Below, piece after piece: positions 33,001 to 39,540 of a stretch of DNA of 64,000 bases. The position numbers were made by a program, and so were the translations under genes. Source of the stretch: the human T2T-CHM13v2.0 reference genome, Homo sapiens; assembly GCF_009914755.1 (NCBI RefSeq), contig NC_060938.1. One strand, given 5' to 3'. The notes under the pieces are model-generated. The model did no database searches. It was not told where the DNA came from and saw nothing but the letters and a program-made list of their open reading frames with translations. Numbering within the stretch: the first letter of the stretch is position 1; each line of letters starts with the position of its first letter.

Positions 33001-33448
33001 AAAATCAGTTTGTCTGGTAATGTGTTGGTAAGATTAATCTATGATGGGTATTTTCTAAGAAAGTTCAAAAACAGGAAATGAGGAGTAGGAATAAAAATAG
33101 GAAAAGGGAAAAAAAGAAATAAAAATCAATGTAAATCAATTTATAATAGTATGGGGGAGAAAAATTCAGATATTTCATATTGTATGACTTTTATATTTTC
33201 CCAGTGAGGGAATAAGTGATCTAAAAATTGTTAAATGTATTCCATTATTAATATGAAAGAATACATTATTGCTAAATAAATTTTATAATTAATAACATGA
33301 AGCATACTGACAATATAATGTAAAATAAAAGGGGTAAAGTACAGCTGCTTATATAGTTAGAACTCCTTAATTTAGCCTATGTATAGACAAAGAACTAGAA
33401 GAAAACACACCAAAATGTTTACTGAATTATGGGATTTCATACTTTGCA

Positions 33449-34173
33449 TTTTTTTTATTATACTTTAAGTTTTAGGGTACATGTGCACATTGTGCAGGTT
33501 AGTTACATATGTATACATGTGCCATGCTGGTGCGCTGCACCCACTAACTCGTCATCTAGCATTAGGTATATCTCCCAATGCTATCCCTCCCTCCTCCCCC
33601 CACCCCACAACAGTCCCCAGAGTGTGATATTCCCCTTTCTGTGTCCATGTGATCTCATTGTTCAATTCCCACCTATGAGTGAGAATATGCGGCATTTGGT
33701 TTTTTGTTCTTGCGATAGTTCACTGAGAATGATGATTTCCAATTTCATCCATGTCCCTACAAAGGACATGAACTCAACTTTTTATGGCTGCATAGTACTC
33801 CATGGTGTATATGTGCCACATTTTCTTAATCCAGTCTATCATTGTTGGACATTTGGGTTGGTTCCAAGTCTTTGCTATTGTGAATAATGCCGCAATAAAC
33901 ATACATACGTGTGCATGTGTCTTTATAGCAGCATGATTTATAGTCCTTTGGGTATATACCCAGTAATGGGATGGCTGGGTCAAATGGTATTTCCAGTTCT
34001 AGATCCCTGAGGAATTGCCACACTGTCTTCCACAATGGTTGAACTAGTTTACAGTCCCACCAACAGTGTAAAAGTGTTCCTATTTCTCCACATCCTCTCC
34101 AGCACCTGTTGTTTCCTGACTTTTTAATGATTGCCATTCTAACTGGTGTGAGATGGTATCTCATTGTGGTTTT
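33449..34173 (-). mobile_element. Young L1 (L1PA2/3-like) 3' fragment, ~0.72 kb
   Basis: Short poly(T), 3'UTR with GAG (non-Ta) diagnostic, ORF2 C-terminus [25 protein letters not shown]. Confidence 0.96.
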
Positions 34174-34219
34174 AATGCACCAAGAGTTTCCAGAAACATA
34201 AATAAAAATACAAAGTATG
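34169..34219. repeat. Inverted copy of flank 38404-38454
   Basis: gttttaatgcaccaagagtttccagaaacataaataaaaatacaaagtatg matches the reverse complement of 38404-38454 at 48/51 positions. Confidence 0.95.
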
Positions 34220-37200: not shown

Positions 37201-38385
37201 GACCTAAAACCATAAAAACCCTAGAAGAAAACCTAGGCATTACCATTCAGGACATAGGCATGGGCAAGGACTTCATGTCTAAAACACCAAAAGCAATGGC
37301 AACAAAAGCCAAAATTGACAAATGGGATCTAATTAAACTCAAGAGCTTCTGCACAGCAAAAGAAACTACCATCAGAGTGAACAGGCAACCTACAGAATGG
37401 GAGAAAATTTTTGCAACCTACTCATCTGACAAAGGGCTAATATCCAAAATCTACAATGAACTCAAACAAATTTACAAGAAAAAAACAAACAACCCCATCA
37501 AAAAGTGGGCGAAGCACATGAAAAGACACTTCTCAAAAGAAGACATTTATGCAGCCAAAAAACACATGAAAAAATGCTCATCATCACTGGCCATCAGAGA
37601 AATGCAAATCAAAACCACAATGAGATACCATCTCACACCAGTTAGAATGGCAATCATTAAAAAGTCAGGAAACAACAGGTGCTGGAGAGGATGTGGAGAA
37701 ATAGGAACACTTTTACACTGTTGGTGGGACTGTAAACTAGCTCAACCATTGTGGAAGTCAGTGTGGCGACTCCTCAGGGATTTAGAACTAGAAATACCAT
37801 TTGACCCAGCCATCCCATTACTGGGTATATACCCAAAGGACTATAAATCATGCTGCTATAAAGACACATGCACACGTATGTTTATTGCGGCATTATTCAC
37901 AATAGCAAAGACTTGGAACCAACCCAAATGTCCAACAATGATAGACTGGATTAAGAAAATGTGGCACATATACACCATGGAATACTATGCAGCCATAAAA
38001 AATGATGAGTTCGTGTCCTTTGTAGGGACATGGGTGCAATTGGAAATCATCATTCTCAGTAAACTATCGCAAGAACAAAAAACCAGACACCGCATATTCT
38101 CACTCATAGGTGGGAATTGAACAATGAGATCACATGAACACAGGAAGGGGAATATCACACTCTGGGGACTGTTGTGGGGTGGGGGGAGGGGGGAGGGATA
38201 GCATTGGGAGATATACCTAATGCTAGATGATGAGTGCAGCGCACTCGCGTGGCACATGTATACATATGTAACTAACCTGCACAATGTGCACATGTACCCT
38301 AAAACTTAAAGTATAATAATAAAAAAAAACATAAACTAAAAAAGAAAAATAAAAAAATAAAAAATAAAAAAATAAAAATAAATAA
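34217..38385 (+). mobile_element. Young L1 (L1PA2/3-like), 5'-truncated at the end of ORF1, 4.1 kb
   Basis: Last ORF1 codons and TAA, spacer, entire ORF2, 3'UTR with G-rich tract, long A-rich tail; aaaaatacaaagta at 34204-34217 and 38386-38399. Confidence 0.97.
34294..38120 (+). pseudogene. L1 ORF2p (APE endonuclease, reverse transcriptase, Cys-rich domain) with two apparent lesions
   Basis: MTGSNSHITILTLN start; 1-nt frameshift near 34669; TGA at 35613; 817-aa open RT/C-terminal segment containing LFADD. Confidence 0.95.
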
Positions 38386-38444
38386 AAAAATACAAAGTAA
38401 AGACATACTTTGTATTTTTATCTATGTTTCTGGAAACTCTTGCT

Positions 38445-39540
38445 GTATTAAAACTTACCCACAATTTAATAGTATAAAACAACAACCATTTGACTATGCT
38501 CATGAGTCTATGGGTCAGGAATTTCAGAATGGCACATCAGTGGTTGCGAATATCTGCTCCATAATATCAGGTACCTCATGTGAAGAGACTTGAACAATTA
38601 CAGGTGTCTGGGATGTGTTGTCTAGGTCTATATTTCTGGGTCCTTGCTGTGATTTGATTGCACATAATCCTCTAAAATTCATTTGTTAAAACTTAATACA
38701 GAATGTGAGAATATTAAGAGTTGGAGCCCTTTAGGTAGTAATTTAAGTCATGAGGGTTTTACTCTCATGATTTCATGAATAGATTAGTACTCTTATAAAA
38801 GAGTACTCTGATAAAAGAGGTTGAATGGATGCTCTAGGGCTGTTTCTTCTTTTCATTTTTTCCGTCCACCATGTGAAGACACCCAGTGTGTTGTGGTATG
38901 TAAAAGACCCTTCCACCACATGAAGATGCAGCAAGAGGCACCATCATGGCAGCAGAAAGCAAGCCCTCACCAGACACCAAATCTGCTGATAACTTGGTCT
39001 TGGACTTCCCAGCCTCCAGAACTGTGAGAAATAAATTTCTGTTATTTATAAATTACCCAGTCTAAGGTATTTTGTCATAGCAGCCTGAATGGACTACACA
39101 GGCCTTGTGATGCCTACTTTTCCAGATGGCATCTATTGGAAATGGAATATCTAAGATGGCTCTCGGGCTCACATGTCTAGCACCTAAGCTAGAATGGCTG
39201 GGGAAGCAAAGGGTTTGCTGCCATTGCTGTCTCCCAAAGTGGCCCATCCTCATGGATTGCTTAGGCTTCCTTACAGTATGGAAATCACAGAATAGCCAAG
39301 CTTGTTCTAAGGAAGCTAGCTTCTTCCAGAGTAATTGTTATAAGAAAAATACAATAGAAATTGCCAGTCTTCTTAAAGGGTAGGCTTGAAATTGGAATAA
39401 TATTACTTTTGGCATATTCTATTATTTAAAGCAGTCACAGGCCAATCCAGAATCAAGGGAATGAAATAATAGACTTTACTTGTCAATGGAGGATGATATG
39501 TGCATAGAAGCAGGGGAGAAAAGGATGGTTATTTTATAGA
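38445..39540 (-). mobile_element. Old MLT1 (H-like) LTR interrupted by an MST LTR
   Basis: aaaacaacaaccattt..gctcatgagtctatgggtcaggaattt; later catattctattatttaaagcagtcacaggcc. Confidence 0.6.
38645..39100 (+). mobile_element. MSTD-like MaLR LTR
   Basis: tgctgtgatttga...aaaattcatttgttaaaactta...ccctcaccagacaccaaatctgctg...cttccagcctccagaactgtgagaaataaa...ggactacaca. Confidence 0.85.

What the first reader, a model, noticed from the sequence alone, without database searches (positions are those of the whole stretch)
33438..38454. Head-to-head double L1 insertion: both poly(A) tails outward, one target site used at four junctions, 51-bp fold-back linker
Seen, in order: CATACTTTGCATTTTT (33438) | L1 3' end on minus (to 34173) | 51-bp inverted copy of the right flank (34169-34219, 48/51 identical to revcomp 38404-38454), joined by GTTTT and ATG microhomologies | 4.1-kb L1 on plus | AAAAATACAAAGTA-aaga-CATACTTTGTATTTTT (38386-38419, a 14-bp hairpin). 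The same endonuclease-type site (AT/AAAAATACAAAGTA) flanks both elements, and both are of the same young age class. Established: classical twin priming gives an inverted 5' piece and only one 3' end, so it does not explain two 3' ends. Inference, three models. (a) One concerted event: the second-strand overhang snapped back, made a T-rich 3' end and primed a second poly(A) cDNA, then template-switched onto the flank. (b) A first insertion with a snap-back duplication recreated the target site and a second L1 hit it. (c) The middle was later flipped by recombination between the inverted 3' ends.
Basis: partly seen in the sequence, partly recalled or inferred. Interest (0 to 1): 0.8.

Follow-up and report, generated by a model that had tools for sequence, protein, structure and literature searches.

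The report
Two L1 copies from one break
Two decayed L1 retrotransposon copies sit head-to-head inside a single target-site duplication, with small inverted copies of the flank at their joints; this is best read as a fossil of one botched insertion in which the L1 machinery primed DNA synthesis from both ends of the same break.

Summary
A 0.72-kb L1 3' end (minus) and a 4.1-kb L1 (plus) lie head-to-head with both A-tails outward. The whole 4.95-kb complex is bracketed by one 16-bp direct target-site duplication, CATACTTTGYATTTTT. Between the two L1s is a 51-bp inverted copy of the right flank (48/51). After the plus-strand A-tail is a 14-bp inverted copy of the target, which forms a hairpin with the native target.

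The motif occurs at all four junctions (5 matches in 64 kb, 0.17 expected). The two L1s belong to the same age class. They share no private variants and differ at one lineage marker, so two RNAs are likely.

Best reading (about 0.6): one aberrant insertion episode. The 3' overhang of the reciprocal break end folded back, gained a TTTTT-3' end, and primed a second poly(A) cDNA.

Junction anatomy argues against an independent second hit. The inner copy matches the full 16-nt native target, not the 14-nt hairpin version. A later inversion alone cannot explain the structure.

Each step has published precedent ("dual priming" was postulated in 2010; inverted duplication of the reciprocal end was shown in 2024). 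This is a new variant of a known kind. The ape orthologues that would decide it could not be examined here.

The parts
33438..33453 (+). Left copy of the target-site duplication T (CATACTTTGCATTTTT). Its 3' end, TTTTT, is the primer for L1a. The native nick site is TTTTT/AT.
   Evidence: (D3)
33454..34173 (-). L1a: the last 717 nt of an L1PA-type element plus a very short A-run (8 A, of which 5 can belong to the target). It is 5'-truncated at ...CCACAATGAG.
   Evidence: (I1-I4)
34169..34219 (-). 51-bp inverted copy of the right flank (R' 34169-34203 plus the full 16-nt T' 34204-34219), 48/51 identical. It overlaps L1a by GTTTT and L1b by ATG.
   Evidence: (I5)
34217..38325 (+). L1b: a 4.1-kb 5'-truncated L1 that starts in the last codons of ORF1. 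ORF2 (34294-38120) is colinear but broken.
38326..38385 (+). A-rich tail of L1b, about 60 nt, with interruptions.
38386..38399 (-). T'p: a 14-nt inverted copy of the target (AAAAATACAAAGTA). On the bottom strand it is the TTTTT-3' primer for L1b. It is also the direct repeat of 34204-34217.
38400..38403 (.). AAGA filler at the tip of the hairpin. Together with the next two bases (CA) it forms the 6-nt loop.
38404..38419 (+). Right copy of the target-site duplication T (CATACTTTGTATTTTT).
   Evidence: (D3)
38420..38454 (+). R: 35 nt of native right flank and the source of the inverted copy. From about 38427 it is the start of an old interspersed repeat that continues rightwards.

Best explanation
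This is a fossil of one aberrant L1 insertion episode at a single endonuclease site. It is 'dual priming' made possible by a fold-back.

Shown directly by the sequence: the empty site was L-T-R, with T = CATACTTTGTATTTTT. The present order is L-T | polyT-L1a(antisense, 0.72 kb) | R'-T' | L1b(sense, 4.1 kb)-polyA | T'p(14 nt)-AAGA | T-R.

Inferred steps:
1. L1 endonuclease nicked the top strand at TTTTT/AT. The T-3' end primed cDNA 1 on a poly(A) tail (ordinary target-primed reverse transcription).
2. A second-strand break 16 nt upstream left the reciprocal end with a 3' overhang, ...AAAAATACAAAGTATG-3'.
3. After about 4 added nucleotides (TCTT), that overhang folded back on itself. It was extended 14 nt and ended in TTTTT-3' next to the original nick. 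This regenerated the same primer, or equivalently the same endonuclease site inside a hairpin stem.
4. That end primed a second cDNA on the poly(A) tail of a second L1 RNA.
5. The 3' end of a cDNA annealed to the end of T' through CAT/ATG. It copied T' and 35 nt of flank (51 nt in all) and then paired with the other cDNA through GTTTT/AAAAC.
6. Fill-in and ligation sealed the complex inside one 16-bp target-site duplication.

The middle segment may later have flipped by recombination between the two inverted 717-bp L1 ends. If so, it is unknown which cDNA was originally the long one. The locus has no evident present-day function. It is a decayed insertion that carries a 717-bp inverted repeat.
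For: - A single 16-bp direct duplication (15/16) brackets the whole complex.
- The native top-strand site is TTTTT/AT.
- The target motif is at all four junctions: 5 matches in 64 kb against 0.17 expected.
- The bottom strand of 38384-38421 folds into a 14-bp hairpin whose 3' arm ends in T-run. That is exactly the primer needed for the L1b A-tail. No such hairpin occurs in 57 control L1 flanks, where the longest stem is 9 bp.
- The inner copy at the L1b 5' end matches the native 16-nt T' through TG, whereas the copy after the A-tail stops at 14 nt and continues AAGA. A cDNA end annealing to the terminus of T' predicts this. A plain second insertion into the hairpin version does not; it would need a 1/16 coincidence.
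- The right flank is the original, because an old repeat runs on from about 38427 and the inverted copy stops after 51 nt. The left flank is unique in the genome.
- The two L1s are of one age class. The 22 substitutions in 705 aligned sites split 10 to 12 between them. An L1b less than half the age of L1a is disfavoured (P = 0.03-0.08).
- Mismatches between the flank copies (3/51, or 4/67 with the outer duplication) fit the L1a-L1b divergence (P = 0.21 and 0.16).
- Precedents, from passages read: inverted duplication of the reciprocal end by self-annealing at L1 insertions in L1-expressing clones and tumours (bioRxiv 10.1101/2024.12.14.628481); 'dual priming' by two mRNAs, postulated in PMC2837659; a cDNA 3' end snapping back onto nearby target DNA in R2-protein insertions (PMC11371274); endonuclease cutting faster near DNA ends (PMC12809410, abstract); a preference for a short duplex next to the nick (PMC10830416).
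Against: - No intermediate or empty allele was seen, because no other primate genome could be searched. One event versus two therefore rests on junction logic and priors.
- The two L1s share 0 private variants. They differ at column 179 (G versus A), a variant linked to one sub-lineage: 12 of the 13 G-carrying neighbours also carry T at column 566. They probably came from two source elements. This is neutral to mildly unfavourable for a single episode and excludes the simplest 'one RNA copied twice' version.
- The concerted path needs two fold-back or template-switch steps (14 nt and 51 nt). The sequential model needs only one, plus an ordinary insertion.
- The AAGA filler is unexplained.
- R versus R' differ at 3 of 35 positions, somewhat more than expected (P = 0.10).
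- The neighbour sets used for polarity were chosen by a search that favours rare words, so they are a biased sample.
Confidence: 0.6

Rival explanations
1. Two separate insertions. First, L1a inserted with a fold-back inverted duplication of the reciprocal end. This gave L-T-L1a-R'-T'p-AAGA-T-R, a 49-bp-arm palindrome. Later, an unrelated L1 (L1b) inserted classically into the regenerated TTTTT/AT site of the inverted arm, making a 14-bp target-site duplication (AAAAATACAAAGTA).
For: - Every step is documented. [quoted passage not shown] 4D/E legends and text.
- L1b has a perfect 14-bp direct repeat on both sides and a good endonuclease site.
- The two L1s differ at a lineage marker and share no private variant.
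- PMC2837659 notes that such sites may attract later insertions (abstract).
- Endonuclease is reported to prefer unusual DNA structure and positions near DNA ends (PMC12809410 abstract).
Against: - It needs a second germline L1 to hit the same few nucleotides. My estimate from recalled copy numbers is on the order of 1e-3 or less per site. This was not computed.
- The copy at the L1b 5' end reads ...AAAGTATG, the native 16-nt target. The pre-insertion sequence under this model would read ...AAAGTA-AAGA. The extra TG must then come from L1 by chance (1/16), and the second-strand nick must fall exactly at the arm/loop boundary.
- L1b carries at least as many private substitutions as L1a (12 versus 10, or 11 versus 11). 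Any time gap must therefore be short relative to their age.
Confidence: 0.2
2. Two L1 insertions, followed by an inversion of the middle through recombination between the inverted 717-bp L1 3' ends, as the main cause of the odd structure.
For: The two arms are 717 bp long, about 97% identical and 3.4 kb apart. That is a good substrate for inversion. Undoing the flip gives a 4.1-kb minus-strand L1 with a classical 16-bp target-site duplication and a CAT microhomology. Under that arrangement the 51-nt copy becomes an ordinary extension of the first cDNA on the reciprocal overhang.
Against: Derived from the sequence: the unflipped structure still has a 0.72-kb L1 whose A-tail is followed by the 14-nt inverted target plus AAGA. 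That L1 sits between two direct 51-bp copies of T-R and has no endonuclease site for its first nick. An inversion therefore removes none of the anomalies, and hairpin priming is still required. As a full explanation it costs three events.
Confidence: 0.1
3. An assembly artefact, or a pre-existing natural palindrome in the target unrelated to L1.
For: Inverted repeats can confuse assemblers. The T-R segment starts an old repeat.
Against: - All junction sequences are unique in the genome, and the repeat arms are short relative to long reads (read lengths are recalled).
- The old repeat is present only in native orientation and continues to the right. The inverted copy stops after 51 nt.
- A natural palindrome would not explain the third, direct copy of T at 33438, left of L1a.
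Confidence: 0.03

Closest known systems
Twin priming (5'-inverted L1 insertions; Ostertag and Kazazian 2001, recalled; described in PMC2837659, passages read)
   Same: Both 3' ends of one endonuclease-made break are used as primers by the L1 reverse transcriptase. The result is two L1 segments in opposite orientation inside one target-site duplication, joined by microhomology.
   Different: Twin priming uses one RNA. The second primer anneals internally, so there is one poly(A) end and the two segments do not overlap. Here both segments end at the L1 3' end with an A-run and overlap by 717 nt. A 51-bp inverted flank copy lies between them.
Dual priming (postulated by Meyer et al. 2010, Mob DNA 1:7, PMC2837659)
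   Same: Two mRNAs are each primed at the poly(A) tail from the two nicks of one target. This gives a poly(T) at one side and a poly(A) at the other, within one target-site duplication.
   Different: It was proposed only to explain 5' poly(T) stretches. No case with a recognisable second L1 body was reported, and the authors wrote that they hoped future studies would validate it. It is the only held paper that uses the term together with retrotransposition. It assumes the native second-strand overhang can pair with poly(A). Here the native overhang cannot, and a fold-back copy supplies the T-run.
L1 insertion with inverted duplication of the reciprocal break end (Mendez-Dorantes et al., bioRxiv 10.1101/2024.12.14.628481, Fig. 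4D/E)
   Same: Self-annealing of the reciprocal 3' overhang through a small hairpin primes synthesis. This leaves an inverted copy of the flank next to the L1 5' end, with a target-site-duplication-like overlap of the breakpoints.
   Different: The described cases carry one polyadenylated insertion. Here a second polyadenylated L1 sits exactly at the regenerated site, and the hairpin tip carries a 4-nt filler rather than a 2-bp microhomology. Those cases are somatic or experimental. This one is a fixed germline relic.
[quoted passage not shown]
   Same: Two primary reverse-transcription ends are joined head-to-head, with both tails outward.
   Different: Those bridges join two different loci, each with its own target site, and rearrange chromosomes. 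Here both primers carry the same 14-nt target sequence, and the chromosome is otherwise colinear.
Snap-back 5' junctions in R2-protein (PRINT) insertions (PMC11371274)
   Same: The cDNA 3' end primes extra DNA synthesis on the cDNA itself or on nearby target DNA before the 5' junction forms. This is the step proposed here for the 51-nt copy.
   Different: It involves a different retroelement protein, an engineered template and the rDNA target. There is no second poly(A)-primed cDNA.

Membership tests
Endonuclease-dependent L1 target-primed reverse transcription insertion | T-rich/A nick site (consensus TTTT/AA) at the 3' junction | tested here: met
   The native top strand reads TATTTTT/ATCTATG at 38419|38420. 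The same T-run precedes L1a at 33449-33453.
Endonuclease-dependent L1 target-primed reverse transcription insertion | Target-site duplication flanking the insertion | tested here: met
   A 16-bp direct repeat, 15/16 identical, at 33438-33453 and 38404-38419 flanks the whole complex (D3).
Endonuclease-dependent L1 target-primed reverse transcription insertion | 3' poly(A) and 5' truncation | tested here: met
   L1b has a tail of about 60 nt. L1a has only an 8-A run that is shared with the target. Both are 5'-truncated.
Twin priming (5'-inverted L1) | A single poly(A) end; the inverted segment is primed internally on the same RNA | tested here: not met
   Both segments reach the L1 3' end and an A-run.
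Twin priming (5'-inverted L1) | The two segments are non-overlapping parts of one RNA | tested here: not met
   The segments overlap over 717 nt. They differ at lineage marker column 179.
Dual priming (Meyer et al. 2010) | Two poly(A)-primed cDNAs from the two strands of one target, inside one target-site duplication | tested here: met
   Both tails face outward within a single 16-bp duplication.
Dual priming (Meyer et al. 2010) | The native second-strand overhang anneals to poly(A) | tested here: not met
   The native overhang would end ...AAAGTATG-3'. The T-run primer exists only as the 14-nt fold-back copy.
Dual priming (Meyer et al. 2010) | Both cDNAs made in one event | not testable with these tools
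   This needs orthologous loci in apes or de novo insertion data. Indirect support comes from the 16-nt versus 14-nt junction argument and the similar private divergence.
L1 insertion with inverted duplication of the reciprocal end | An inverted copy of the reciprocal flank abutting the L1 5' end | tested here: met
   34169-34219 is inverted relative to 38404-38454, 48/51 identical (I5). The right-hand copy is the original.
L1 insertion with inverted duplication of the reciprocal end | A small hairpin or microhomology at the inversion point | tested here: inconclusive
   There is a 14-bp stem with a 6-nt loop that includes a 4-nt filler, and no clean microhomology.
L1 insertion with inverted duplication of the reciprocal end | One polyadenylated insertion | tested here: not met
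   Two are present.

The most novel reading that the evidence does not exclude
L1 can fire twice at one chromosomal break. Fold-back synthesis on the reciprocal 3' overhang regenerates the T-rich primer, or endonuclease site, that the first nick used. A second L1 ribonucleoprotein then starts poly(A)-primed reverse transcription from the other end. If so, this locus would be the first sequence-resolved germline example of the 'dual priming' postulated in 2010. It would also show how an overhang that cannot pair with poly(A) becomes competent to do so.
Probability: 0.5. Interest if true: 0.6.

Novelty: new variant of a known kind. Interest (0 to 1): 0.5.

Why it matters
How L1 completes insertion after first-strand synthesis is still the least understood part of its cycle. 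That part covers what happens to the reciprocal break end and how the second strand is primed. This fossil records, at nucleotide resolution, a break end that folded back, copied itself and was then used as a poly(A) primer.

It links three things reported separately: twin or dual priming, fold-back inverted duplications at L1-induced breaks, and two-tailed L1 bridges in tumours. It shows that such events can pass through the germline and become fixed without a gross rearrangement.

It also gives a concrete search pattern: outward-tailed L1 or Alu pairs inside one target-site duplication, with an inverted target copy after one tail. That pattern can be applied to pangenomes and to de novo insertion data. 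Practically, the 717-bp inverted L1 arms are a plausible substrate for a small inversion polymorphism.

Tried and rejected
1. Shared private variants as proof of one RNA. I aligned L1a and the L1b 3' end with 58 genomic neighbours (29 of the 39 non-self hits of each search were fetched as loci). There were 0 columns where L1a = L1b differs from the majority. This gives no support, and the G/A difference at column 179 argues for two sources.

2. Nearest-neighbour lists as lineage evidence. The two top-40 lists are disjoint. However, L1a is on average closer to L1b's neighbour set (16.1 substitutions) than to its own (19.9). Its two rare variants (columns 375 and 395) never co-occur in a neighbour. 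The lists therefore reflect the search's use of rare words, not lineages. I rejected this as evidence.

3. Paralogous empty site. The left flank has only its self-hit. The right flank gives only the self-hit, the 51-bp inverted copy and 25 weak old-repeat hits. There is no paralogue with an empty or intermediate site.

4. Polarising the three R/R' differences with 8 old-repeat copies. Position 38443 is ancestral in the right copy. Position 38446 lies in a decayed CpG and is ambiguous. Position 38422 lies outside the repeat. This did not help decide the mechanism.

5. Templated origin of the AAGA filler. GTAAAGAC spans the hairpin tip (38397-38404) and also occurs 7 nt inside the L1b 5' end (34227-34234). 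The 8-mer occurs 7 times in the window, so the proximity is suggestive only.

6. A first control for hairpins after L1 tails used a tail-skipping rule that failed on the interrupted L1b tail. It was replaced by a fixed 150-nt scan.

7. Sister-chromatid priming from two L-T ends. Rejected, because L1b's tail is followed by only 14 nt of inverted target and then native T-R, not by inverted left flank.

8. A natural palindrome in the target. Rejected (see rivals).

9. PMC12016303 and PMC2912911 were searched for two-tailed or dual-primed structures. The chosen terms found nothing relevant.

10. Earlier findings of this scan were not open to the session.
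Full report
**What is there.** I use these labels: L for the left flank; T for the 16-nt target CATACTTTGTATTTTT; R for the next 35 nt of right flank; primes for reverse complements. 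The window reads as follows:

- L
- T (33438-33453, with one C for T)
- TTT plus the last 717 nt of an L1 on the minus strand (L1a, to 34173)
- R'-T' (34169-34219)
- a 4.1-kb 5'-truncated L1 on the plus strand (L1b, from 34217) with an A-rich tail of about 60 nt (to 38385)
- AAAAATACAAAGTA (38386-38399; the first 14 nt of T', called T'p here)
- AAGA
- T (38404-38419)
- R (38420-38454)
- the rest of the right flank

The inverted flank copy is 48/51 identical to its source (pair I5). It overlaps L1a by GTTTT and L1b by ATG. Other genomic L1 copies start to match the junction query at exactly 34217, or at 34212 with mismatches. L1b's ORF2 is colinear from 34294 to 38120 but broken into three ORFs. 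L1b is therefore an ordinary decayed copy with no internal rearrangement.

**Is it more than chance?** The 14-nt target motif, with at most one mismatch, occurs five times in the 64-kb window. Four occurrences are at the four junctions and one is unrelated. 0.17 are expected, and no shuffle out of 100 reaches five. The strand 38384-38421 (minus) folds as DNA into a 14-bp stem with a 6-nt loop, at -10.2 kcal/mol and z = -6.0. As a control I scanned the 150 nt after the L1 body in 57 other genomic L1 3' ends (58 fetched, one without the anchor). The longest perfect stem there was 4-9 bp, against 14 bp here. The central junction is unique in the 3.1-Gb assembly.

**Which copy of the flank is the original?** The left flank (33150-33456) has no other match in the genome. 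The right flank query returned 27 matches: the self-hit, the 51-bp inverted copy, and 25 weak matches (70-90% identity) that start at query positions 29-82. An alignment with eight of these copies shows an old interspersed repeat that begins at about 38427 and continues to the right. From memory it resembles a MaLR-type LTR, but this was not tested. Sequences to the left of that point are unrelated among the copies. The right-hand T-R is therefore native. The inverted copy at 34169-34219, which carries only the first ~28 nt of that repeat, is the derived duplicate. A natural palindrome in the target is also excluded by the third, direct copy of T to the left of L1a.

**The key structural point.** The pair 33438-33453 and 38404-38419 is a direct repeat (15/16). 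It brackets the whole 4.95-kb complex like a single target-site duplication. The native top strand reads TATTTTT/ATCTATG, a good L1 endonuclease site. L1a is therefore an ordinary product of target-primed reverse transcription from the L-T-3' end. L1b is different. On the bottom strand its primer is ...AAAAATACAAAGTATG-TCTT-TACTTTGTATTTTT-3'. That is the native reciprocal 3' overhang (T'), four extra nucleotides, and a fold-back copy of the overhang that ends in the same T-run as the first primer.

**The two L1 copies.** They differ by 22 substitutions in 705 aligned sites, plus four indels. I aligned them with 29 + 29 genomic neighbours. The majority base of the two neighbour sets agrees in every column except a near 50:50 tie at column 566, so both copies belong to one subfamily consensus over this stretch. 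By majority rule, 10 of the 22 differences are private to L1a and 12 to L1b. One of these, at a CpG, is ambiguous, which would make the split 11 to 11.

No column has L1a = L1b against the majority, so there is no shared private variant. Both copies carry T at column 566. In this sample that state goes with more diverged copies than the G566/T227 state (6.4-6.8 against 4.0-4.6 substitutions from the majority in the less biased set). From my recollection of the L1HS sequence, G566/T227 is the younger, L1HS-ward state. L1a also carries ...GACGAGTTAG, which from memory marks L1PA2 or older. L1b has deleted that stretch.

The copies differ at column 179 (G in L1a, A in L1b). G179 occurs in 13 of 58 neighbours, and 12 of those 13 also carry T566, so it marks a sub-lineage rather than a recurrent change. 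The two copies therefore most likely came from two different source elements and two RNAs.

A caveat: the neighbour lists are biased, because the genome search seeds on rare words. L1a is on average closer to L1b's neighbour set than to its own, and its two rare variants never co-occur in any neighbour. I therefore drew no lineage conclusion from the fact that the two lists are disjoint.

**One event or two?** There are three lines of argument.

- *Junction anatomy.* Suppose L1b were a later classical insertion into the palindrome left by a first event. The pre-insertion sequence would then read ...AAAGTA-AAGA-CATAC..., and the copy at L1b's 5' end would be those 14 nt followed by L1. The 5' copy actually reads ...AAAGTATG, the full native 16-nt T'. 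Under the sequential model the TG must be supplied by L1 by chance (1/16), and the second nick must fall exactly at the arm/loop boundary. A cDNA end annealing to the terminus of T' through CAT/ATG predicts the 16-nt copy directly.
- *Age.* L1b is not younger than L1a by private substitutions. An age ratio of 0.5 or less gives P = 0.03-0.08. Any gap between the two events was short.
- *Site reuse.* Re-use of the same few nucleotides by an independent germline L1 is rare. This rests on my recollection of copy numbers and was not computed.

Against the single-event reading: it needs two copying steps (14 nt and 51 nt) where the sequential model needs one. The two RNAs differ in lineage. No empty or intermediate allele could be examined. 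The mismatches among the flank copies (3/51, or 4/67 with the outer duplication) fit the L1a-L1b divergence (P = 0.21 and 0.16) and do not discriminate.

**The inversion model.** The two 717-bp arms are about 97% identical and 3.4 kb apart, so a flip of the middle is plausible at any time. I worked out the unflipped order from the sequence. It would be: L-T-[4.1-kb L1, minus]-T-R-[0.72-kb L1, plus]-tail-T'p-AAGA-T-R.

The long element then has a textbook 16-bp duplication. The 51-nt copy becomes a simple extension of the first cDNA along the reciprocal overhang. The short element, however, still ends in a tail followed by the 14-nt inverted target, and it still lacks an endonuclease site for its first nick. 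Inversion therefore cannot replace hairpin priming. It can only be an add-on, and it leaves open which cDNA was originally the long one.

**Comparison with what is in print.**

- *Twin priming* gives one tail and non-overlapping segments, so this locus is not a member.
- *Dual priming.* Meyer et al. (PMC2837659; abstract, figure legend and the 'Dual priming' section read as passages) postulated that two mRNAs are primed from both nicks. They did so to explain 39 L1s with a 5' poly(T). They could not tell it from twin-priming variants and asked for validation. A full-text search for 'dual priming' with 'retrotransposition' returns only that paper. Papers outside the held library are not covered by that search.
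- *Inverted duplication and two-tailed junctions.* Mendez-Dorantes et al. [quoted passage not shown] They also show translocation junctions that retain two polyadenylated insertions.
- *Two-tailed bridges.* Zumalave et al. (bioRxiv 10.1101/2024.08.27.596794, passages) describe L1 bridges with two tails and two endonuclease motifs, formed between different chromosomes.
- *Snap-back junctions.* R2-protein insertions show 'snap-back' 5' junctions, where the cDNA 3' end copies nearby target DNA (PMC11371274, passages).
- *Biochemistry.* The endonuclease cuts faster near DNA ends (PMC12809410, abstract) and prefers a short duplex beside the nick (PMC10830416, passages). This fits a site 14 bp from a hairpin tip.

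In the papers I could search, I did not find the specific combination seen here: one target, two poly(A)-primed L1 bodies, and a second primer created by fold-back of an overhang that could not itself pair with poly(A).

**Verdict.** It is best explained as a single aberrant retrotransposition episode, dual priming enabled by a fold-back (confidence about 0.6). Two closely spaced independent events come second (about 0.2), with a possible later flip of the middle. It is a new variant of a known kind and of moderate interest to specialists. It can be decided by aligning ape and pangenome haplotypes, which these tools do not provide.

Noticed in passing
window 38445-38456 (bottom strand): The far end of the duplicated 51-nt segment coincides with a second endonuclease-type motif on the bottom strand, 5'-GTTTT/AATACAG. 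It lies 30 bp from the top-strand site and faces it. It may only reflect the GTTTT microhomology with L1, or the segment boundary may have been set by a nick there. Unexplained.
   Followed up: partly
window 38397-38404 and 34227-34234: The 8-mer GTAAAGAC spans the hairpin tip, including the AAGA filler. It recurs 7 nt inside the 5' end of L1b. There are 7 occurrences in the 64-kb window against 2.2 expected. It could mark an abortive internal priming on the L1 RNA before the fold-back, or it could be chance.
   Followed up: partly
window 38427-38600: The right flank is the 5' part of an old, diverged interspersed repeat, with 25 weak genomic matches at 70-90% identity. From memory it looks like a MaLR-type LTR. 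It is not listed among the masked stretches of 100 bases or more given with the finding.
   Followed up: partly
window 33454-34173 and 37611-38318: Indels that distinguish the two L1 3' ends: L1a has a 4-bp GTAT duplication and a 2-bp deletion. L1b has an 8-bp deletion (CGAGTTAG) that removes the stretch used, from memory, to separate L1HS from older subfamilies. L1a also lacks one AAT unit before its A-run.
   Followed up: no
window 33449-33456: L1a's A-run is only 8 nt, and 5 of those can belong to the target. L1b's tail is about 60 nt. Reverse transcription of L1a seems to have started at the very beginning of the tail, or the tail has shrunk strongly.
   Followed up: no
G000 searches: The own-genome DNA search seeds on rare words. 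For high-copy repeats it returns copies that share the query's private variants rather than its true nearest lineage. The top-40 lists for two 97%-identical queries were disjoint.
   Followed up: yes
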